From the IMG/VR virus record IMGVR_UViG_3300050161_000124, positions 1 through 58,133 of that record: a stretch of 58,133 nucleotides of DNA. One strand, written 5' to 3'. The translations under genes and the position numbers were made by a program. The notes under the pieces are model-generated. The model searched no databases. It saw only the letters and a program-made list of their open reading frames with translations, and was not told the DNA's origin. Each line of letters starts with the position of its first letter. Position 1 is the stretch's first letter. The DNA comes from a virus (lineage: Duplodnaviria > Caudoviricetes). Shown here piece by piece: positions 3,028 through 30,443 of the stretch.

Positions 3028-5015
3028 TATACAGACCCAGGAGGAGTACTAAGTGCGGTCGTTACAGAACCTAGAATATAAATAGAAGTAGTATTTTCAG
3101 GTATTAGTACATCTAGGATTGTAGCCTGTTTAGCAGGAAATAGATCCTTAGTGTAGTAGTTATACACTACATCTATTGGCGTTTTTAACCCTGCAATGTT
3201 ACCCGACGTAGTGAGAACTGAAACCAAATCGGATAGAATCAAGTCTTGACCTGGGGCTAGGCTCTTTAAGAACCCTTCAATAAGGGTGGCCGCATGGCCG
3301 CTAGTGGGTAAGATTTCCCCGTAAATTATCAAGTTTATATCGAGTACATAGATATCAAAGCCTCTGGCTAGATAATCAGCACATAAGACCCTATTATCAG
3401 AAAGCTCTAAGTAAGACTGAACTGATGGTAAATAGTCGAAAGTTCCTAGCTGCATGGTGCATGTTTGACCGGCATAGCTACTACCAAAATTAATGTCCAT
3501 GACCTGTCTAGTAGAGAACCCAGTATCTAAGTAGGGGTTAGTATATGTAATACTAGGAGCTAGATTAGACCCTACTGTTAGCGGAGTTGCTGATAAATTA
3601 TGCCCGACTCTGAAGTTATCGGGATCAATTACAGAACTTACCGACAGATAGAGATTCGAAGACGCTTGAGGCCAACCGTGAATCTTCACCATACGACCTA
3701 CGACCATCATATGGTTAACCATTTTTACCGCAATAGTACCATCTAGTGGTTGGGTGAATACTGGGCTGAAATCTACGGTATGACCGGGATACGTCGTAGT
3801 AAAACTAATTCCCGCCCCTAAGGTATCTGCATCTCCAAAGGGTACTGTGCTACGAGAAACTTGAAATACTGGCCCGTTAATTCTAACTGAGCCGTTAGAA
3901 TCTAGCGTGTATTTAGCTAAACTTTGGGTTACCGTCTCTGAGCAGTAAATATCTACTGCCCCGCCCTGATGTAAATATAGATTTTCAATAGCAGGGGTTA
4001 CCGTAGGTGCTAGAAAGGTACGATTAGGAGTGCTAACTGGTACTGTAACTTTGAAATTGCCGGCGTCAATTATGGTATTAACTCTTGCCCGCCTGTACAC
4101 TACTTTATCGCTAGCTAAACCAGCTTCTACTACGTCTACGAGTTGGTTTAGTTTCAAGCTGTGATTAGCGAGCGCAATAAGCATGCTAGTGCCGGAGTCA
4201 ACAATAGACATAGAAGTCCCCGTCGCAGGGTCTCCATAGCTGCCGTTAACATTGATTTGGTCTCGGAACATTTCAGGCTCTCCCGCACCGATAGGGAGAA
4301 TCCGGTTTAGGTAGTTGAGATCGACTCTAAGTTTGCTGTCGGTACTAGGTTTATTAATTAGGTTGCGAGTACTGATAGAAGATTTTGCTCTACTAATAAA
4401 CTCTAAGTTAGTTTCCGGCTCATTACTGGCTTGCGAGAGATAGTTTATTTCCCCGTGTAAAAAGTAAGGATCGAAGTTGCTAAAGTAGAGTAAACTCCCG
4501 CTGCTGATATTATAAGCCGAGCCTTTTTCTCCTGCAATTAGATCTACGTCTATGAACCACTCGTTCTGAAAAGAATCGAACTGTAGAGCGTTGGCTGGAT
4601 ACGTAGTGGCGGTTACTGGAAAAAACAAGAGATCAGAATTCGTAGAGAAGCTAATGTTAGTAGTTAATGACACAGATTTCTGACGCGCAAAGTAAAGTCT
4701 GGCGTTAATTACCGAGAATGATCCTGTGTTACGAGTCAGAAATAAATTGCTGAGCAGGTCATCCACTAACTCTTGTGGGGAAGTATCGCTTACTTTAGCG
4801 AGGGTGTTCTGAGAGAAATAGTAGTCAAAACCAGTCTTACACAAAGCCAGTAGAAAAGCCGAGGGTCGGATCACTAAATCTCTAATACCAGTACCTTCCC
4901 GGAGATCTAAATCTGGATACTTAGCCTCTAAGATTTGCTTAGCAAACAACTCCGCTTCCAGTATGTCTTGCTGGCTTGGTTGAATCCCGGAGATTACTGA
5001 ATATAGATCTGACAT
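3027..5015 (-). CDS. baseplate wedge subunit (gpJ/gp6-like)
   Basis: DLREGTGIRDLVIRP, AGEKGSAYNI and ETNLEFISR motifs match baseplate J-like proteins. Confidence 0.75.
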   Translation of the reverse strand: MSDLYSVISGIQPSQQDILEAELFAKQILEAKYPDLDLREGTGIRDLVIRPSAFLLALCKTGFDYYFSQNTLAKVSDTSPQELVDDLLSNLFLTRNTGSFSVINARLYFARQKSVSLTTNISFSTNSDLLFFPVTATTYPANALQFDSFQNEWFIDVDLIAGEKGSAYNISSGSLLYFSNFDPYFLHGEINYLSQASNEPETNLEFISRAKSSISTRNLINKPSTDSKLRVDLNYLNRILPIGAGEPEMFRDQINVNGSYGDPATGTSMSIVDSGTSMLIALANHSLKLNQLVDVVEAGLASDKVVYRRARVNTIIDAGNFKVTVPVSTPNRTFLAPTVTPAIENLYLHQGGAVDIYCSETVTQSLAKYTLDSNGSVRINGPVFQVSRSTVPFGDADTLGAGISFTTTYPGHTVDFSPVFTQPLDGTIAVKMVNHMMVVGRMVKIHGWPQASSNLYLSVSSVIDPDNFRVGHNLSATPLTVGSNLAPSITYTNPYLDTGFSTRQVMDINFGSSYAGQTCTMQLGTFDYLPSVQSYLELSDNRVLCADYLARGFDIYVLDINLIIYGEILPTSGHAATLIEGFLKSLAPGQDLILSDLVSVLTTSGNIAGLKTPIDVVYNYYTKDLFPAKQATILDVLIPENTTSIYILGSVTTALSTPPGSV

Positions 5016-16875: not shown

Positions 16876-18471
16876 TTAGAATGTAAAGACAGAGTCTCCG
16901 CCGGCTTCTCTGTCTTGATAAACGAACTCGCCTTTGACTATCATAAAAGCAACGAAGGCAAATACAAGCGAGTGCAAGAAATCGTCGGTACCATCTTCAT
17001 CCTTACGGTAAAGTCTGCGCCCACTATTAGACTCTTCTTCATAGATATGAAGGGCATCAGACCAGAAGGGCTCCATAACAGACCAAGACGGGCTTTCTAT
17101 CTTCGCAGGCCCCATCTTCACTTTAATAACCGCAGTGTCTATTGCCAAGGTTCTGTCTGCGGCAAAGTAGTTCCCCTCTTTGTCAAAACGAAGATTAGTC
17201 TTTGCTGCAACGTAGTTAACCATACTGACGCGGTCGTCCCCCAAGGCTCTTTTCATCAACTGACCTTGAAGTACGCCTACGCCCCTGTCTGAGGCTATGT
17301 GAGTGCATTCAAACTGGCGATATATGTCGATTACTCTAGATACTTGAGCTAGAATGTCTATGCCGTCTAGTTTCTGGGCGTAAACGACATACGCCTTACC
17401 AGAAAAGTCAAAGCCTAAAACAGTGACTACCGTGTAGCTTTTATCTGATCCTGTTACGCTCCAATCTACGCCAAGTACAGTGAATAGGATATTCCTATCG
17501 TCCTTGGGGAACGCTGAATCGAACGTGGTTTTAGTAGGATTACAGACCCCCATGACTTGTCGTAGAGATAGTGGCCTACCACCAGCCCCAACAGGGAGCC
17601 CAAAGACTTCGTTGCTGAGTTTGATATGATCATATCTGCTGGCCTTATCTACTAATTCCCCCCACTTCTTAGGGGTGGTTCGAGCAGGGATGCAGAATTG
17701 AGGGATATGGACTCCAACGTGGTTTGTGATCTTAGGTTTACCGGCGATCCATTTACCAGTCTTCATATCCAGCAATCCGCCGCAACTAGGGCATCCTGGG
17801 CCATTGGGGTTTGCTTTAATGATTTTCAGGCACGTTTCAAACTCGTTAGGTATAGCGTGCTTACCGCACTTAGGACAACGGACCACCCACTCAAGCATGT
17901 TAGAGCGGTTAAATAGAACCGTCAGAGTATTAGACTCCCCCTTAGCGGTGCCAGTATACCGCCTAAACATATGATCTGAAGCTGATAGGGTTTCTTCTAG
18001 AATAGGCAACGCTTCAAGAGAAGCATCTTGAACCTCATCGTAGTACATCTGGTCTGCAGATACGCCTCGAACTCTGTCAGCATCTTGCTCAGTTTCTGCA
18101 TAGGCTAGAGTAACCGAAGACCCATTAGTAAACGTGCGCAAGAACACGTTCTTCTTGGAAGAAGAATCGACGAAGTGATTTTTAACTATAGGCGAGTTAA
18201 TAAAAGGTTCTAGATATTGAGAGGAGAATCGGGAAGTTTGTTGAGACAGGGGACTTACAAAGAGAGTAGAGAAGAATTTACGAAGAATGGAAGTAGATAT
18301 GATTGCACTAGCTAAACTAACTGACTTGCCTATTTGTCGACCACAGCACGCGGTGAGGGTAGGGGGAGAGATGTCATACACTAATTGGAAGGGCTTATAC
18401 TCAGATAGGTCGAGGGGCTTACCTTTTAACGTAAGAATGGCAGGCGCTAGTTGGGAGGCTAATATTTCCAT
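16876..18471 (-). CDS. terL: terminase large subunit (lambda GpA-like)
   Basis: Walker A GRQIGKS, Walker B YYDEVQD, CPKC/CPSC zinc finger, nuclease motifs LGVDW and DDFLHS. Confidence 0.9.
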   Translation of the reverse strand: MEILASQLAPAILTLKGKPLDLSEYKPFQLVYDISPPTLTACCGRQIGKSVSLASAIISTSILRKFFSTLFVSPLSQQTSRFSSQYLEPFINSPIVKNHFVDSSSKKNVFLRTFTNGSSVTLAYAETEQDADRVRGVSADQMYYDEVQDASLEALPILEETLSASDHMFRRYTGTAKGESNTLTVLFNRSNMLEWVVRCPKCGKHAIPNEFETCLKIIKANPNGPGCPSCGGLLDMKTGKWIAGKPKITNHVGVHIPQFCIPARTTPKKWGELVDKASRYDHIKLSNEVFGLPVGAGGRPLSLRQVMGVCNPTKTTFDSAFPKDDRNILFTVLGVDWSVTGSDKSYTVVTVLGFDFSGKAYVVYAQKLDGIDILAQVSRVIDIYRQFECTHIASDRGVGVLQGQLMKRALGDDRVSMVNYVAAKTNLRFDKEGNYFAADRTLAIDTAVIKVKMGPAKIESPSWSVMEPFWSDALHIYEEESNSGRRLYRKDEDGTDDFLHSLVFAFVAFMIVKGEFVYQDREAGGDSVFTF

Positions 18472-25848: not shown

Positions 25849-26523
25849 TTAAGATTTCGGGCGGAGGGGGTCCCGCGCACTAATGTAGTTCATAGCTGAT
25901 TCCTCGAAAGGAGCCTTAACCGAGTTTTCTACGGCACCCCGGACATTACCCGAGATCATATCGGACAGCCTTTTTAGAACAGTATTAGGGGTATGCATAC
26001 TTTCAATAGCTGACAGAGATCTTACAGTGTTCGGGTCAGTAGGATATTGAGAAAGTCCGGACAGTACATTTTTAGTCTTAGAGCGCTGATGAACGGCAGT
26101 ACTGGTATCCATCCATCCGGCTATACCCCCTCCAATCCCCCCCAGAACCCCTCCGAACGCTAAGGCGTTTCTCCAACCGGCTCTTCTCCCCGCTGAAATA
26201 ACGCTTGGGGGAAGCCTAGCCGAATTAGGGTTTGCGGCTAATCTTTGGAAAAGGGTAGACTTACTGAGAGCCATAGGAACCGCAATCATTCCACTTAAGG
26301 CCCCAAGACCGGTATCTGTGGCTACAGTCTTGTAGTCTTTCTTAGCGTAGTTAGGATTAATTCCTTGAGACAACACCGTGGCGTTATCTCGCAAAGCTTC
26401 CATCCTTCCTGTCAAAGATAGGCTTTTAAACACGGGGTCCTGTATTACCAAAGACAAGTCCTTACCTGTTTTCTGGTATCTGTCAATCAGAATCTTGACA
26501 ATCTGCGCTTCGCTCAATTGCAT
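25849..26523 (-). CDS. hypothetical protein with Gly-rich hydrophobic helices
   Basis: 224 aa; GGVLGGIGGGIAG glycine-zipper-like segment. Confidence 0.6.
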   Translation of the reverse strand: MQLSEAQIVKILIDRYQKTGKDLSLVIQDPVFKSLSLTGRMEALRDNATVLSQGINPNYAKKDYKTVATDTGLGALSGMIAVPMALSKSTLFQRLAANPNSARLPPSVISAGRRAGWRNALAFGGVLGGIGGGIAGWMDTSTAVHQRSKTKNVLSGLSQYPTDPNTVRSLSAIESMHTPNTVLKRLSDMISGNVRGAVENSVKAPFEESAMNYISARDPLRPKS

Positions 26524-26532
26524 GCTTAGATT

Positions 26533-27087
26533 TTAGCCTAGATCTTGCAAAACTTCTAGTATGTTATCCTTTAGCATCGGGGTATATTCAGTGTTGATCT
26601 TAAACGCTGGAGTAAGGTAGTCTTCGCCGAGATCCGAGGAGGGGACGTTTTTGTTTAGTATGAACTTGAAAGTCCATTGCTCGTCTAAAGTAACAGTACA
26701 TACTGCCAAGATATCAAAAGTACCCCGAGGTAAGTGGTGGGTGGTTAGCTCCTCTGATATCTTCTTAGTGTCGGTACTTTTTAACATGACTGTCCCGTCT
26801 ACGCCCCCGTTGAGAATGTCCGGGTAAAGTCTACGAGAGGCCAGATTTTTTAACTCAATAGTAAAGTCTTTGCCTAGGTAAGAAAAAGCAAAGTCCCCTT
26901 TTCTCAGGCTGTGATCTGGGATTTTAGCCACGTTCTCGATTCCTTCTGTGGCCTTTAGTAGATCCCTAAGCTTTTCCTCTGAAATGTATCCGTGAAGGAA
27001 TCCTCTGAAAGAGGGGTTTTCATCTATGCACGCTGCTAGTCTTCCCGGTGGTAGAGAGCTTAGTAAAAATTCACCCGATAAGATCAT
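26533..27087 (-). CDS. putative PD-(D/E)xK restriction-endonuclease-like nuclease
   Basis: GYISEEKL helix, then KGDF...TIELKN (D...ExK) and FDILAV. Confidence 0.6.
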   Translation of the reverse strand: MILSGEFLLSSLPPGRLAACIDENPSFRGFLHGYISEEKLRDLLKATEGIENVAKIPDHSLRKGDFAFSYLGKDFTIELKNLASRRLYPDILNGGVDGTVMLKSTDTKKISEELTTHHLPRGTFDILAVCTVTLDEQWTFKFILNKNVPSSDLGEDYLTPAFKINTEYTPMLKDNILEVLQDLG

Positions 27088-27150
27088 GGTTATTATTGTA
27101 GCACGGGGGTTGACAAGTAGTCAATTTACAATAAACATTTCAGTTAAATC

Positions 27151-27159
27151 TGGTATAAG
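27151..27159 (+). promoter_or_regulatory. TGGTATAAG motif (copy 3), head of the RT island
   Basis: Identical motif upstream of the RT operon. Confidence 0.7.
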
Positions 27160-27241
27160 CATAATATGCAAGAGCAACACGTACTGATTTAGTCCGTGAA
27201 ATTTCACTTCAGTCTTTCAAAATAAACACAAGGTTATTAAC

Positions 27242-27397
27242 ATGTTTTCATTTTTTTGTAATGCCCTCCCCAAGATCAAGGCTCTGGCCCGCACTATGAT
27301 CGTCATTGGTAACTTCGCCCTAGAGCTGTTCCATGTCGTTTCCAAGGTAGTCGCCCAGGGCAGATCAGCGTATAACGCAGCCGCTACGACTGCGTAA
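27242..27397 (+). CDS. small 51-aa hydrophobic/amphipathic protein (not in ORF track)
   Basis: MFSFFCNALPKIKALARTMIVIGNFALELFHVVSKVVAQGRSAYNAAATTA*, with AAGG upstream; first ORF after the promoter motif. Confidence 0.55.
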   Translation: MFSFFCNALPKIKALARTMIVIGNFALELFHVVSKVVAQGRSAYNAAATTA

Positions 27398-27444
27398 TAT
27401 TAGCTAGTCTAAGTAGGGATAAGGGCTCTTTGTCTGGGAAGATA

Positions 27445-28134
27445 ATGAGCGAACAAGCTGACAGCACTATTCCTATCTTGGAATCCCCCTCACTTATAGA
27501 AACGTCCAGCACTACAACACAACCTGTAATCAATCTTATTGCAGGGATAGACGAGAACCTACTAGCCCAACACTGTGAAGTAGAATCCGGGTATACCACC
27601 ACCTTCCTAATTACGGTTAAGAAAAGTGCTGGCTACTCCAGAAACAAGAACTTACTAGTTAGATCAACCGGAAAGTACATCATTCCTAATGAAGGGCAGT
27701 TTTATTACTACCCTATCGCTCAGCCCGTCCCAAACGGAGATCACTTATTCAAACTACCTACTCCGCCTAGAGTTCATCGGGCGGGGTTTGTATCGATAGA
27801 CGGTTGTATCTATTACGTAACCCTCGAGGACCTAAAAAGAAGATTGGTCCGTAAATCTAGAATCGTTCCCCTTAAGAAACAAACTATACCTTATGATGAC
27901 TTCGCCAACAACAACTTCAAGCCCACCCCAAGAGGTGCCGGTAGCTTACGCTCCCTACTTGATCTCGGTGTCGGCGACCCAAGTACCGAAACTGAAAACG
28001 GCAACGGAACTGTCGACTTTGTTGGGCTGGACGAACTCCAAGCAATTGACTTGGTTATCGAAAGCCAAGAACGAGCATTATTCGGTCATCTCGATAAGGA
28101 AGAAAGCGACTTCGAAATTACGGAAAGTGCATAA
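27445..28134 (+). CDS. unknown RT-partner protein with acidic C-terminus overlapping the RT
   Basis: Open for about 700 nt; first ATG at 27445; the last 242 nt overlap the RT in another frame. Confidence 0.6.
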   Translation: MSEQADSTIPILESPSLIETSSTTTQPVINLIAGIDENLLAQHCEVESGYTTTFLITVKKSAGYSRNKNLLVRSTGKYIIPNEGQFYYYPIAQPVPNGDHLFKLPTPPRVHRAGFVSIDGCIYYVTLEDLKRRLVRKSRIVPLKKQTIPYDDFANNNFKPTPRGAGSLRSLLDLGVGDPSTETENGNGTVDFVGLDELQAIDLVIESQERALFGHLDKEESDFEITESA

Positions 28135-29119
28135 CCCTAGTAAAGTAATGAGGGTTGCACAATATAGAATTTTAACAAGGATCTTGGATAAAGTTAGTAT
28201 CCCAGACTATATCCACGGATTCGAGACGGGCAAGTCAATACCGAAAATGGCTCAATCACACGTCGGAAAGGACGTTGTGATTAGTTTGGACATCAAAGAA
28301 TTCTTCCCTTCCATCAGACAGTATATGGTCAAAGCCATGCTGATCCAGATGGGGATAGAAGACACGGCAGCTACCGTCTTGAGCGAGCTATGTACTTACA
28401 AGTACTACGTTCCTCAAGGCTCATTGACTGCGCCAAAAATTAGTAACATCGTCGCAGCTGGCACCTTTGGTCCAGCAATAGAAGCATTCTGTAAACCTCT
28501 AGGGATTACTATGACTATCTATGCGGACGATATTACCTTATCTTACACCAACGATGCTCCTAGCTTAGAGGAAGCTAAGGCGTTCACAAGAGCTGTAATT
28601 ACGTTCGTAACTGAACAGGTCAAAGCTGCCGGCTTCGAAATCAATAAGGCCAAAACTAAGATTATGAGGCCTCATAATCGGCAGTGGGTTTGCGGTGCTG
28701 TGGTTAACCAAAAAGTCAACATGCGTAAGAAAGAACGTATGTCCTTAAGGGCTCTGGTTCACAACTGTAGTATTAACGGAGTAGAGGTAGAGGCAAAGAA
28801 GTCTAATCTACCAACGGAAGCTTTTATTAGAAAGTACGCTGGGCGGATTAACTGGTTTCACCAACTAAACCCTACCGCAGGGCTACCTTTAAAGCTCGGG
28901 TTCAAAACTGAGAGTGACAAATTTTTGAAGCATCATCCGGACGTTGTTATTCCGGAGTTGGCCTGGCAGTCTATCGAGAATCCTACCCCGGAAACTCTGT
29001 CCCCTACCGGCTTTCTTGAAACTACTGGGGATTTTAAGGTTACAACCCCGACCCAATCTACACCCTCATTTCTACCGGACGCGATAGAAAAGAAGGTGTT
29101 GGAAACCTGTCCTTTTTAA
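27893..29119 (+). CDS. retron-type reverse transcriptase
   Basis: HY....IRKK...R....P, HGF..GKSI, region X-like MAQSH, LDIKEFFPSI, PQGSLTAPKISN, YADDITLS, INKAKTK, region Y-like VCGAVVN. Confidence 0.9.
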   Translation: MMTSPTTTSSPPQEVPVAYAPYLISVSATQVPKLKTATELSTLLGWTNSKQLTWLSKAKNEHYSVISIRKKATSKLRKVHNPSKVMRVAQYRILTRILDKVSIPDYIHGFETGKSIPKMAQSHVGKDVVISLDIKEFFPSIRQYMVKAMLIQMGIEDTAATVLSELCTYKYYVPQGSLTAPKISNIVAAGTFGPAIEAFCKPLGITMTIYADDITLSYTNDAPSLEEAKAFTRAVITFVTEQVKAAGFEINKAKTKIMRPHNRQWVCGAVVNQKVNMRKKERMSLRALVHNCSINGVEVEAKKSNLPTEAFIRKYAGRINWFHQLNPTAGLPLKLGFKTESDKFLKHHPDVVIPELAWQSIENPTPETLSPTGFLETTGDFKVTTPTQSTPSFLPDAIEKKVLETCPF

Positions 29120-29148
29120 AAACTAGAATCTTAGAGCTTTAACTTACC

Positions 29149-29379
29149 ATGACTAAACAAGTTCGTATTGAGAATGCTGACACGACACCTTATAAGGTAA
29201 TCGTCGAAATCTGGGAAAAAGGGGCGGAGCTACCCGATGGTCTAGGTGGTTTCAATCAAACCCCAGATACTCTAGTTCGCACGATCAGCTTGAATCGCCC
29301 TACTGACATGACAGGGGACGGAGTATATGTAACTAATACGCGCTACCTCGTAGTTAAGGAAGCACCTGCCGGGCCGTAG
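29149..29379 (+). CDS. hypothetical protein
   Basis: 76 aa ORF between the RT and the terminator. Confidence 0.7.
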   Translation: MTKQVRIENADTTPYKVIVEIWEKGAELPDGLGGFNQTPDTLVRTISLNRPTDMTGDGVYVTNTRYLVVKEAPAGP

Positions 29380-29394
29380 TAAGCAGCTCTCAAT

Positions 29395-29424
29395 AAAGAT
29401 CTTGAGCTTTCAAGGTCTTTTTTT
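29395..29424 (+). terminator. intrinsic terminator closing the RT island
   Basis: AAAGATCTTGA-GCTT-TCAAGGTCTTT followed by a T run. Confidence 0.75.
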
Positions 29425-29453
29425 AGCTAGCCTAAGTACTTTAAAATATAGGC

Positions 29454-29708
29454 ATGAAATACACTAACTGCATAATCTTTTCTATTAAACTTTTTACGAG
29501 AAGAAGCAGGAAGAGTAAGGTAGGATACTTGGTTATTAGAAAGTCTCACTGGGGTTTATTCCCTCATGTAACTTACGGTAGACTGCGTAAGGATGGTACC
29601 TTAGCGATAGTAGGTTATACTGCGATAAATAAGAGGTGGTGGACTACAATTTTACCTTTGTATAAGGGTAGGGTATCCTGGGGTGAGAGATCTAAAGACG
29701 AGATGTAA
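29454..29708 (+). CDS. small basic hypothetical protein
   Basis: 84 aa; TAAAAT-N6-ATG upstream. Confidence 0.6.
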   Translation: MKYTNCIIFSIKLFTRRSRKSKVGYLVIRKSHWGLFPHVTYGRLRKDGTLAIVGYTAINKRWWTTILPLYKGRVSWGERSKDEM

Positions 29709-29731
29709 AAAACCCGCTGACTAGGCGGGTT
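29707..29731 (-). terminator. intrinsic terminator
   Basis: AACCCGC-N7-GCGGGTT with an A run on the plus strand; near-identical to 31684-31708. Confidence 0.75.
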
Positions 29732-29756
29732 AAGTGTTTGATAATGCCCCGGCCTA

Positions 29757-30443
29757 TTAGATAATAGCAGTTACTCGGCCAGAACCGTCAAAGGTAACTG
29801 AGCGCGAAGAGCCTAGTGAGCTAGTAATAGTAGCATGGGTTGAATCCGGATAAGCCACCGTGAAAGTCACAGTACCGACGGTATAACCAGAAACTCTCGA
29901 CGATCCGTCGTATGTAACTCCAGAAATCCCTGACGTCGCTACGAGGGCTTGAGTGGCAACGACTTGAGCGGCACTAAGTCCATTGAATACAGTACTGGCC
30001 CCAGTCCCCCAGGCACCAGCAGCTTTTGTGTAGTATAGTTGAGCGGCAAAGTCTACTGAGATGTCCCCATTAGTACCGGTTCCACTAGCAGGCTGGCCTG
30101 CAGCCGACAAAGCAACATTAGAGTCCGCAGCTAGAGTCACTGTCTTTCCTAACCCCAGACTAACTACGTTAGCATGACTAGCAGCGGCATTAGCCGCGTC
30201 AGTGCCACCCGTAGTTAGGGTCCAGATTCTAGAACCCGCTTCCCCAATGATGTCCAGTCTCTCACCGTTCTGGTAGAGACCTACAGAGTTAGCTGCGATT
30301 CTGGCTCTCTCAGCAGTGACTGCTGCATTGAACTCAGCTCGGGTCAACTGCTTTGTAACCCCGGAGATCTGAGCTAGTGAAGATCTGTTAATAAGGGGTA
30401 GGCCGTCGTCGCCTTTGGCCAGTGAAGAAGCAATGGTAGTCAT
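29757..30443 (-). CDS. short fibre/tailspike-like protein; N-terminus paralogous to 38792..40978
   Basis: First ~165 aa nearly identical to the 728-aa protein. Confidence 0.7.
   Translation of the reverse strand: MTTIASSLAKGDDGLPLINRSSLAQISGVTKQLTRAEFNAAVTAERARIAANSVGLYQNGERLDIIGEAGSRIWTLTTGGTDAANAAASHANVVSLGLGKTVTLAADSNVALSAAGQPASGTGTNGDISVDFAAQLYYTKAAGAWGTGASTVFNGLSAAQVVATQALVATSGISGVTYDGSSRVSGYTVGTVTFTVAYPDSTHATITSSLGSSRSVTFDGSGRVTAII

What the first reader, a model, noticed from the sequence alone, without database searches (positions are those of the whole stretch)
27893..28134. 242-nt dual-coding overlap between the RT N-terminus and the partner's acidic tail
Both frames look real. The RT frame encodes the conserved retron N-terminus (PKLKTATELSTLLG...LTWL...HY..I.IRKK), which is very basic. 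The other frame encodes a very acidic tail (VGLDELQAIDLVIESQE...DKEESDFEITESA). Within the overlap, RT codons often end in G (TCG, ACG, GCG, CTG, TTG) and shift towards A/T endings after the partner's stop at 28134, as expected if the second frame is under selection. Inference: genetically locked partners, where the acidic tail may bind the RT or mimic nucleic acid; a +1 frameshift fusion is an alternative.
Basis: partly seen in the sequence, partly recalled or inferred. Interest (0 to 1): 0.7.

Follow-up and report, generated by a model that had tools for sequence, protein, structure and literature searches.

The report
Two-frame overlap in phage retron
In a phage-borne retron-type module the start of the reverse transcriptase gene and the tail of the gene before it are written in the same 242 bases in two reading frames, and relatives show that evolution preserves both readings.

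Summary
A 229/234-aa ORF (27430/27445-28134) and a retron-type RT ORF (27893-29119) share 242 nt, with the RT in the +1 frame.

- **Conservation:** the partner frame stays open across the RT N-terminus in 27 of 28 related viral loci and in 31 of 32 further loci. In more distant retron RT loci it is open in only 2 of 20.
- **Chance:** reshuffling the RT's synonymous codons predicts 3.8-6.4 stops in the overlap. P(open) is 0.0085 or less per locus.
- **Selection on the tail:** its amino acids are conserved beyond what the RT sequence forces (z 8.9-9.8). Control windows give z 0.1-2.3.
- **Not an artefact:** contigs from four other runs match the window with no indel.
- **Separate start:** the RT has its own ATG, and no fused protein was found.
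- **The partner:** it belongs to a family of 254 clusters with no known fold. The model shows a beta core, a disordered linker and an acidic C-terminal helix.

My best reading is two separate proteins, with the tail overprinted on the RT's basic N-terminus. Binding of the two has only weak model support. The layout resembles Type VI retrons (small protein, middle protein, RT).

The parts
27151..27159 (+). Extended -10-like motif TGGTATAAG, the likely promoter of the module
   Evidence: TGGTATAA[GC] lies about 200-430 nt upstream of the partner start in 24 of the 26 related viral loci scanned (plus the window), 751 nt in L020/L021. The consensus promoter scan did not list it because it has no good -35. 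Function is inferred.
27242..27397 (+). Small ORF, 51 aa, amphipathic/hydrophobic (first gene of the module)
   Evidence: An ATG-started ORF of 38-56 aa (100-104 aa in L013/L017) with a similar helical, hydrophobic pattern sits between the motif and the partner in every locus examined. No Pfam or PADLOC match.
27445..28134 (+). Partner gene (229 aa from ATG 27445; 234 aa from TTG 27430): beta-rich core, disordered linker, acidic C-terminal helix
   Evidence: The ORF is. The identical 229-aa product was called on 9 contigs. A profile of 23 relatives finds 254 cluster representatives at E<=1e-3. AF2 model: residues 65-155 pLDDT >90, segments within 166-193 <50, helix 193-223. No Pfam family and no clear fold match. 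pN/pS of the non-overlapping part is 0.09-0.48 in 8 pairs.
27893..29119 (+). Retron-type reverse transcriptase, 408 aa, full length including the conserved N-terminus
   Evidence: Pfam RVT_1 4.6e-21. PADLOC retron RT models, best RT_XIII 2.4e-66 and RT_III-A 4.2e-65, aligned from residue 22-33. YADD invariant; N-terminal invariants L44, T53, Y63, K70, R77, P82 in 24 sequences. The gene caller's version (P0002, 323 aa) starts only at M86, just after the partner's stop.
27893..28134 (+). Dual-coding overlap, 242 nt: RT residues 1-80 (frame 2) and partner residues 150-229 (frame 1)
28021..28113 (+). Core of the overlap: partner helix 193-223 (motif like 'AD.AW.EQ..LL....EEG.WEI' in relatives) over RT residues about 43-74 ('LLGW...LTWL..K..HYS....RKK')
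   Evidence: Helix from the model. Motifs from alignments A2 and A5. Position-specific wobble conservation: for example, the base before RT K59 is C in 18 of 18 sequences although RT residue 58 varies A/N/S/T. This makes partner Q invariant.
29149..29379 (+). 76-aa ORF between the RT and the terminator-like hairpin; possibly a fourth gene of the module in this phage only
   Evidence: ORF. No Pfam or PADLOC match. Not seen at this place in L002, where a terminator follows the RT.
29395..29420 (+). Terminator-like hairpin followed by TTTTTAGC
   Evidence: Similar 'TTTTTAGC' tails follow the terminators after the module in L002, L004 and the L003/L006/L008 group.

Best explanation
The window carries a phage-borne retron-type module: conserved promoter motif, small amphipathic ORF, partner gene, RT gene.

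The partner and the RT are two separate proteins. The RT starts at its own ATG, in the +1 frame, at the end of the partner's folded beta core. For 242 nt both frames are translated.

- The first ~130 nt encode the variable, low-complexity linker of the partner and the variable leader of the RT.
- The last ~110 nt encode both the RT's conserved basic N-terminal motif and the partner's conserved acidic amphipathic helix.

The RT frame is the older one, because this N-terminus is shared with other retron RTs. The partner's tail was overprinted on it. The RT's third codon positions are the first positions of the partner's codons. Selection there excludes T before AA/AG/GA (which would make stops) and favours G (giving E, D, G, A, V). 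It also fixes particular bases.

Shown: both frames are kept open and conserved. Inferred:
- The helix docks on the RT, or on the small protein, as the middle protein of Type VI retrons does.
- Ribosomes reading the partner pass over the RT start and so limit or couple RT synthesis.
For: - **Conserved overlap and phase.** The partner frame is open from the RT N-motif to within -25..+77 nt of 'HNP' in 27 of 28 viral loci. It is open to within -34..+95 nt in 31 of 32 further evaluable non-duplicate loci. The third frame is always closed.
- **Synonymous shuffle.** P(open) is 0-0.0085 in each of 27 loci.
- **Negative control.** 2 of 20 more distant retron RT loci are open over the same stretch. 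The partner profile matches only beside close RT relatives.
- **Tail conservation beyond what the RT forces.** z 9.8 (BLOSUM) and 10.6 (identity), against 0.1-2.3 and 0.6-3.6 in five control windows. With the overlap's own codon usage as the null, z is 8.9 and 7.3, and 0 of 400 replicates reach the observed value.
- **RT frame under purifying selection in the overlap.** For example pN 0.018 against pS 0.256, and 0.036 against 0.375.
- **The partner is a real gene.** The core has pN/pS 0.09-0.48. There are 254 related clusters, and their matches run to the C-terminal end.
- **Own RT start.**
- **No long or fused forms.** RT relatives are at most 441 aa and partner relatives at most 396 aa among those listed. 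None was found at 665-2000 aa.
- **The tail exists apart from the RT.** In L024 the partner homologue has an acidic tail ('..VDIMWKTVEYEE') encoded wholly upstream of the RT ATG.
- **No indel.** Contigs of 4 other runs lie across the overlap with none.
Against: - No protein or RNA evidence exists: no RNA holder was listed.
- The RT's synonymous rate is only slightly lower in the overlap than in the core. Examples are 0.302 against 0.313 and 0.256 against 0.268; at most 0.539 against 0.871.
- In the partner frame the tail shows pN/pS 0.7-3.6 in seven of the eight pairs; in the eighth (L003-L005) pS was 0, so no ratio could be formed. So the RT dominates the constraint, and the tail is selected mainly for openness, composition and a few positions.
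- The window's RT ATG has no Shine-Dalgarno-like motif.
- Two loci (L024, L095) do without the long overlap, so it is not indispensable.
- A low level of frameshifting cannot be excluded from sequence alone.
Confidence: 0.8

Rival explanations
1. Programmed +1 (or -2) ribosomal frameshift: ribosomes reading the partner shift into the RT frame inside the overlap, or at the partner's stop, and make a partner-RT fusion, as in gag-pol.
For: The RT is in the +1 frame in every locus. The long overlap resembles transframe regions of retroelements (recalled knowledge). The window's RT ATG lacks a Shine-Dalgarno-like motif.
Against: - The RT frame begins with an ATG directly after an in-frame stop in 7 loci. 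A GGAG/GAGG/AAGG motif lies upstream of its first ATG in 14 of 28.
- The RT-frame residues before the conserved motif vary in length and sequence, like a free N-terminus.
- I saw no conserved slippery motif in the codon alignment. I ran no dedicated search for one.
- A fusion does not need the partner frame to stay open and conserved for another 110-380 nt.
- No fused protein appears among the listed relatives.
Confidence: 0.08
2. Only translation through the region matters, not the tail as a protein. The partner's ribosomes must run over the RT start and the first ~80 RT codons, to open RNA structure or to time RT synthesis. The tail's sequence would then be a by-product.
For: The RT's synonymous rate is barely lowered in the overlap. 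The tail has pN/pS around or above 1 in the partner frame. The partner's stop falls at the first or second chance after selection ends, at 'HN' or 'PD' of HNPD.
Against: - Position-specific wobble conservation goes beyond stop avoidance and beyond composition (z 8.9, 0 of 400).
- The invariant partner Q needs C in 18 of 18 sequences, where A or G would also avoid a stop.
- An aromatic-E-I/V motif is kept while the RT residue beneath it varies S/T/G.
- L024 encodes an acidic tail without overlap.
- The tail is modelled as one helix, pLDDT up to 83 in block means.
Confidence: 0.1
3. Artefact: an assembly indel splits one gene, or the long upstream frame is a chance ORF over the RT's 5' end.
For: The gene caller could not place both genes and cut the RT to 323 aa. 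The partner has no match in Pfam, PADLOC, phage records or the first word-based search.
Against: - Contigs of four other runs cover 27754-28170 and neighbouring parts with 0 other letters and 0 gaps.
- The identical proteins occur on 9 contigs.
- The same two-frame layout recurs in 58 of 60 related loci at 41-56% RT identity.
- The shuffle test also argues against chance.
Confidence: 0.02

Closest known systems
Type VI retrons (SP - HTH - RT), e.g. Retron-Sen3 and Retron-Vpa2
   Same: Both have three genes in the same order: a small hydrophobic or amphipathic protein, a middle protein, then a retron RT. [quoted passage not shown] In Sen3 the middle protein neutralises the small toxin and associates with the RT, and a distal inverted repeat encloses the small protein's coding sequence. 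Source: bioRxiv 10.64898/2026.04.27.721009; I read the abstract, section 25 and found passages. Here there is also a small ORF, a middle gene overlapping the RT, and leader-to-3' complementarity in relatives.
   Different: - The middle protein here has no HTH. It has no Pfam family, and its model shows a beta core plus an acidic helix.
- The overlap is 110-380 nt and is conserved in both frames, not a short junction.
- The RT's best PADLOC models are XIII and III-A; RT_VI scores 3.4e-55.
- The clade sits on phage contigs, with only one close relative among species-representative bacterial genomes.
- Homology of the small ORFs to Type VI SP clusters was not shown.
Type XIII retron RT (best PADLOC model)
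   Same: The RT matches PDLC02956 RT_XIII best, at 2.4e-66 over residues 27-340.
   Different: - The profile has about 105 further N-terminal positions that this RT lacks.
- Type XIII is defined by a linked winged-helix/SWIM zinc-finger protein and a HEAT/ARM-like protein (PMC7736814, found passages). None is in this module.
- The score is nearly tied with RT_III-A.
Overprinted overlapping genes of viruses (e.g. hepatitis B virus polymerase/surface, phiX174, gag-pol transframe regions)
   Same: A younger frame is laid over an older conserved one. The younger product is compositionally biased and partly disordered or helical. The older frame dominates the constraint. This is recalled knowledge; the review PMC8227390 was seen only in a search listing.
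   Different: Here the overlap lies in a large double-stranded DNA phage (record 58 kb, about 51% complete), where genome compression is not pressing. It joins two partners of one retron-type module, and it is kept across a family of hundreds of clusters.
Viral retron-like RT clades from metagenome surveys (RTC3/RTC5)
   Same: Retron-like RTs on viral contigs have been reported (PMC13681634, found passages).
   Different: The passages I read describe no partner gene, no overlap and no ncRNA. Whether this clade is RTC3 or RTC5 was not tested, and the supplements were not seen.

Membership tests
Retron reverse transcriptase | RT (RVT_1) domain with the catalytic YADD | tested here: met
   Pfam RVT_1 4.6e-21. 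Y210, A211, D212, D213 are invariant in 27 sequences; three of the four stay invariant (Y210 nearly so) in the 24-sequence set.
Retron reverse transcriptase | Best matches are retron RT profiles, including the retron-type N-terminal region | tested here: met
   48 PADLOC families matched; the 25 listed are all retron RT models, with the best at 2.4e-66 and aligned from residue 22-33. The motifs at the places of the retron 'NAxxH' and 'VTG' read MAxxH and VCG here. The names of these motifs are recalled, not from a call.
Retron reverse transcriptase | Adjacent msr-msd ncRNA with a1/a2 inverted repeats and a priming G | tested here: inconclusive
   No Rfam match at E<=1 in 26000-30000. In relatives, a perfect complement of >=10 nt between the 60-nt leader and the 200 nt after the RT stop occurs in 14 of 44 loci. 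Controls gave 0 (direct) and 1 (reversed). The window has only a 16-of-20 candidate, 27175-27194 / 29151-29170. No priming G was identified.
Retron reverse transcriptase | Production of msDNA | not testable with these tools
   Needs expression and nucleic-acid analysis.
Type VI retron | Small accessory protein gene upstream of the middle gene | tested here: inconclusive
   A 38-56 aa ORF is present in every locus examined. No homology to known families was found. SP clusters cl2075 and the others were not available for comparison.
Type VI retron | Cro/C1-type HTH middle protein | tested here: not met
   No Pfam family in any of 23 partners. The model is a beta core plus a helix.
Type VI retron | Middle gene upstream of, or partly overlapping, the RT gene | tested here: met
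Type XIII retron | Linked winged-helix/SWIM zinc-finger protein, and usually a HEAT/ARM-like protein | tested here: not met
   The partner, the 184-aa neighbour and the 76-aa ORF have no such Pfam match. Feature taken from PMC7736814 passages.
Programmed frameshift fusion (gag-pol type) | Downstream frame lacks its own initiation site | tested here: not met
   An ATG is present in the RT frame of 25 of the 28 loci and the window; L014 has only a GTG, L007 is cut by the contig end, and L023 has several GTG/TTG candidates upstream of its ATG. The ATG directly follows an in-frame stop in 7 loci. A Shine-Dalgarno-like motif lies upstream of it in 14 of 28.
Programmed frameshift fusion (gag-pol type) | Conserved slippery site and stimulator | not tested
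   No dedicated search was run. None was evident in the per-column table.
Overprinted (dual-coding) gene pair | Second frame open far beyond chance, given the first protein | tested here: met
Overprinted (dual-coding) gene pair | Both frames show sequence conservation of their own | tested here: met
   RT. Tail.
Overprinted (dual-coding) gene pair | Both products are made | not testable with these tools
   No RNA holder was listed, and there are no proteomics.

The most novel reading that the evidence does not exclude
This is a phage-specific retron type of its own. The partner's acidic helix is written on the complementary phase of the RT's basic N-terminus. It would be the RT-binding switch, an antitoxin-like adaptor between the small amphipathic protein and the RT.

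In addition, the whole three-gene mRNA would be enclosed by an a1/a2-type pairing. The coding sequences would then lie between the priming end and the template end of the retron RNA. The phage would use the module against rival phages or against host defence.
Probability: 0.25. Interest if true: 0.85.

Novelty: new variant of a known kind. Interest (0 to 1): 0.66.

Why it matters
**Annotation.** Gene callers cut the RT of this clade at the methionine after the partner's stop. Many database entries therefore lack the conserved N-terminus. Anyone cloning these RTs from annotation would get a truncated enzyme.

**Retron biology.** This is a family of hundreds of clusters with a new partner protein, found almost only on phage contigs. 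Its layout resembles the recently dissected Type VI systems. It offers a natural case for asking how the middle protein talks to the RT.

**Gene evolution.** It is a clean example of overprinting in a large DNA phage. Selection can be read base by base at the RT's wobble positions. One side branch (L024, L095) carries the tail without the overlap and can serve as a comparison.

Tried and rejected
- **Phage records.** tblastn with the partner found nothing. With the RT, all 42 matching records were under 60% identity, at most 29.9% among the 20 listed.
- **Single-protein scans of viral contigs.** Nothing found. The alignment-based scan worked.
- **Word-based search with the partner.** It found only the partner itself.
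- **Fold searches of the partner model.** Foldseek found no match at E<=0.001. VIA-align's best was Z 4.8 over 66 residues. I take these as no assignment, not as a new fold.
- **Other partner searches.** The profile against PDB sequences gave only E 0.33. The protein atlas gave scores <=0.88 and TM <=0.31.
- **Rfam.** No match.
- **RNAduplex of leader against 700 nt downstream.** It did not discriminate, z -2.8 to +1.6. I replaced it with exact and near-exact helix searches.
- **Window's own subclade.** For the window, L002, L004 and L027 no convincing leader-to-3' pairing was found.
- **RNA evidence.** No RNA holder was listed for the stretch.
- **Partner alignment on genome contigs.** It had no stretch conserved enough to search with.
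- **Literature.** Searches for a retron partner overlapping the RT, or for phage-encoded retrons of this kind, gave only Mestre 2020, the Type VI preprint and a viral RT survey. Supplements are closed and may hold relevant clade lists.
- **Co-fold.** Complex prediction of RT 1-345 with partner 60-229 returned 'weak support'. The score was 0.57 and the best of 3 controls 0.00. The mark was reached by 58 of 80 solved complexes and 2 of 110 mismatched pairs. At 0.60 or under it was reached by only 7 of those 80 and by both mismatches that passed. The runs agree in at least 26% of contacts, and the partner's pLDDT is at least 60.

Full report
**What is there.** The window is a virus record of 58,133 bases, estimated about 51% complete. 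Between blocks of minus-strand structural genes lies a plus-strand cassette.
- The RT ORF 27893-29119 (408 aa) is a retron-type reverse transcriptase. It matches Pfam RVT_1 at 4.6e-21. All 25 listed PADLOC matches (of 48) are retron RT models. The best are RT_XIII at 2.4e-66 and RT_III-A at 4.2e-65, aligned from residue 22-33.
- The ORF before it runs from TTG 27430 or ATG 27445 to 28134.
- The two share 27893-28134, 242 nt, with the RT one base ahead.
- The gene call on record for this very RT is 323 aa and begins at M86, right after the partner's stop. Many relatives in the protein collection begin at the same 'MRV.QYRIL'. Annotation therefore resolves the conflict by cutting the RT.

**Is the overlap real?**
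- An alignment-based scan of viral contigs gave 28 loci with RT relatives of 45-56% identity.
- In all 28 the RT frame carries the conserved N-terminal motif.
- In 27 of 28 the frame of the upstream ORF is open from that motif to within -25..+77 nt of the RT's 'HNP'. The third frame is closed every time. L007 is cut by its contig end but is open as far as it goes. L024 is the exception.
- Five pairs among the 28 are duplicates or near-duplicates.
- In a second, independent set of 48 loci, 9 were duplicates and 7 could not be evaluated. The set came from one genome contig and 47 metagenome contigs. Of the remaining 32, 31 keep the frame open, with the stop at -34..+95. L095 is the exception.
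- In 20 more distant retron RT loci (22-32% identity) the same frame is open over the same 41 codons in 2 of 20. The partner profile matches nothing beside them.

**More than chance.**
- I kept each RT protein and its codon usage and shuffled synonymous codons. The overlap should then hold 3.8-6.4 stops in the partner frame. It came out open in 0-0.85% of 2000 shuffles per locus, and 0.15% for the window.
G at RT third positions is 43.8% in the overlap against 24.2% after it. T is 12.5% against 29.1%. The same holds in 22 relatives pooled.
- The reason is mechanical. The RT's third position is the first position of the partner's codon. T before AA, AG or GA makes a stop. G gives E, D, G, A or V.

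**Is the tail selected as protein?**
- In the RT frame the overlap is under purifying selection. pN/pS is roughly 0.07-0.15 in the closest pairs.
- The RT's synonymous rate is only a little lower in the overlap than in the core.
- Read in the partner frame, the tail has pN/pS 0.7-3.6 in seven of the eight pairs, while the partner's non-overlapping core has 0.09-0.48. In the eighth pair (L003-L005) the tail's pS was 0, so no ratio could be formed. So the RT dominates, as in other overprinted pairs.
- Even so, the tail is conserved beyond what the RT forces. I took 18 sequences from different subclades and resampled RT-synonymous codons under a no-stop condition. The observed similarity of the tail lies at z 9.8 (BLOSUM) and 10.6 (identity). 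Five control windows elsewhere in the RT give 0.1-2.3 and 0.6-3.6.
- Using the overlap's own G-rich codon usage as the null still gives z 8.9 and 7.3, and 0 of 400 replicates reach the observed value.
- The per-column table shows why. The base before RT K59 is C in 18 of 18 sequences although RT residue 58 is A, N, S or T. This makes the partner's Q invariant. T before RT G56 gives W in 12 of 18. G before RT residues 58 and 71 gives E.
- L024 encodes a short acidic tail upstream of the RT start, without overlap. The tail therefore exists apart from the RT sequence.

**Not an artefact.** The identical partner and RT products were each called on 9 contigs. Contigs from four further runs lie on 27100-29400 with no other letters and no gaps. 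These include pieces across 27754-28005, 27993-28170, 27857-28060, 27803-28008 and 28044-28619. The runs carry the same habitat label and may belong to one campaign.

**Two proteins or a fusion?**
- The RT frame has its own ATG. In 7 loci it follows an in-frame stop directly. In 14 of 28 a GGAG/GAGG/AAGG motif lies upstream of it.
- The window's subclade has none. There the ATG sits inside the partner's conserved 'YDDF'.
- None of the listed RT relatives exceeds 441 aa.
- None of the 150 best of 254 partner relatives exceeds 396 aa.
- A search among proteins of 665-2000 aa found nothing.
- I therefore rate a frameshift fusion at about 8%.

**The partner.** A profile of 23 partners finds 254 cluster representatives at E<=1e-3, of which 224 are at <=1e-10. 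Their matches run to the protein's end.
- The AF2 model has mean pLDDT 69.4.
- It shows a beta-rich core (residues 65-155, pLDDT >90), a disordered linker, and one long helix at 193-223.
- No Pfam family, no PDB sequence relative and no convincing fold match was found.
- The RT start lies at partner residue 150, the end of the core.
- The linker overlaps the RT's variable leader. The helix overlaps the RT's conserved basic motif. The helix region has D+E 11 and K+R 2. The RT stretch over it has K+R 9 and D+E 1.

**The module around it (noticed while working).**
- A motif TGGTATAA[GC] lies upstream of the partner in nearly all loci; in the window it is at 27151-27159.
- A small amphipathic ORF of 38-56 aa follows in every locus; in the window it is 27242-27397.
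- In 14 of 44 non-redundant loci, the 60-nt leader has a perfect complement of 10-14 nt within 200 nt after the RT stop. The sequence differs from subclade to subclade. Direct and reversed controls gave 0 and 1.
- The window's own subclade shows no convincing case.

**Comparison with what is known.** The closest described system is the Type VI retron.
- In Retron-Sen3 the HTH associates with the RT, and a distal inverted repeat encloses the small protein's coding sequence (bioRxiv 10.64898/2026.04.27.721009; abstract, section 25 and passages).
- The present family works like that in layout but fails the HTH criterion, so I do not file it as Type VI.
- It fails the Type XIII criterion too, which is linked SWIM and HEAT/ARM proteins (PMC7736814 passages).
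- Retron-like RT clades on viral contigs have been noted in a survey, without partner or overlap in the passages I read (PMC13681634).
- My searches found no description of this overlap. Supplements could not be seen.

**Mechanism, with its status.**
- Shown: two frames are kept open and conserved, the phase and end point are conserved, and the RT has its own start signal in most loci.
- Inferred: both proteins are made. The acidic helix contacts the RT or the small protein. Translation of the partner over the RT start limits or couples RT synthesis.
- The co-fold of RT 1-345 with partner 60-229 gave only 'weak support', 0.57 against 0.00 in controls. It is listed under Tried and rejected with the tool's counts.

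**Verdict.** I judge it a new variant of a known kind, with interest 0.66.

Noticed in passing
window 27151-27159, and the same motif in L002-L029: A conserved extended -10-like motif TGGTATAA[GC] lies about 200-430 nt upstream of the partner start in 24 of the 26 related viral loci scanned (plus the window), with a TCAA-like word about 20 nt before it.
   Followed up: partly
window 27242-27397 (+): A small amphipathic ORF (51 aa here; 38-56 aa in most relatives, 100-104 aa in L013/L017) is the first gene of the module in every locus examined. It has no family match. By position it resembles the small toxin of Type VI retrons.
   Followed up: partly
relatives, e.g. L005 185-197 / 1855-1867, L016 2449-2461 / 4286-4298, L072; window candidate 27175-27194 / 29151-29170: The leader, just after the promoter motif, is complementary to a stretch 10-140 nt after the RT stop. 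The sequences differ between subclades. A complement of >=10 nt occurs in 14 of 44 loci, against 0 and 1 in controls. This is an a1/a2-like pairing that would enclose all three ORFs. The window's own candidate is only 16 of 20.
   Followed up: partly
L003 2442-2640, L005 1750-1990, L006 4009-4260, L008 3973-4225: About 230 nt after the RT are more conserved than the coding sequence. They include a hairpin directly before the a2-like stretch, a second hairpin with compensatory changes, and a possible 28-aa ORF with a GGGAGAG motif.
   Followed up: partly
just upstream of the partner ATG in L003, L005, L006, L008, L009, L011, L016, L026: A short hairpin with loop A[GT][TA]A[AC][CT] shows compensatory stem changes between subclades. 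The window has no clear counterpart.
   Followed up: no
L024 622-993 and L095 2106-2489: This is a side branch of the family. Here the partner homologue ends 2 nt before the RT ATG (L024) or about 36 nt inside the RT's open frame (L095). The long overlap is therefore absent.
   Followed up: yes
window 29454-29708 (+) and L002 4217-4483: A basic 84-88 aa ORF ('..NCIIF....RR......G.LVIR.SHWG.FPHV..GRLRK.G..A.VG') is conserved downstream of the module in the window and in L002. It lies behind a terminator, so it is probably a separate gene. It has no family match.
   Followed up: no
window 29149-29379 (+) and 29395-29420: A 76-aa ORF sits between the RT stop and a terminator-like hairpin. It is absent at this place in L002 and has no family match.
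   Followed up: no
protein collection entries P0002, P0003, P0006, P0007, P0011, P0012, P0017, P0021, P0025, P0093 and others: RT relatives are recorded as starting at or near 'MRV.QYRIL'. They are truncated by about 85 residues, apparently because gene callers give the overlap to the upstream gene.
   Followed up: partly
C-terminus of the RT, window about 28910-29119: The RT has a poorly conserved C-terminal extension. In about half of the 27 aligned relatives (13, the window included) it ends in P-F or P-W. In several subclades the a2-like stretch begins only about 10 nt after the stop.
   Followed up: no
window 16876-18471 (-): The large terminase is about 45% identical to those of Salmonella phage Arash and Vibrio phages D181/D148/D69 (180-187 kb genomes). 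None of these appeared among the 20 listed of 42 RT matches in phage records. Most large ORFs of the window have no PHROG match.
   Followed up: no
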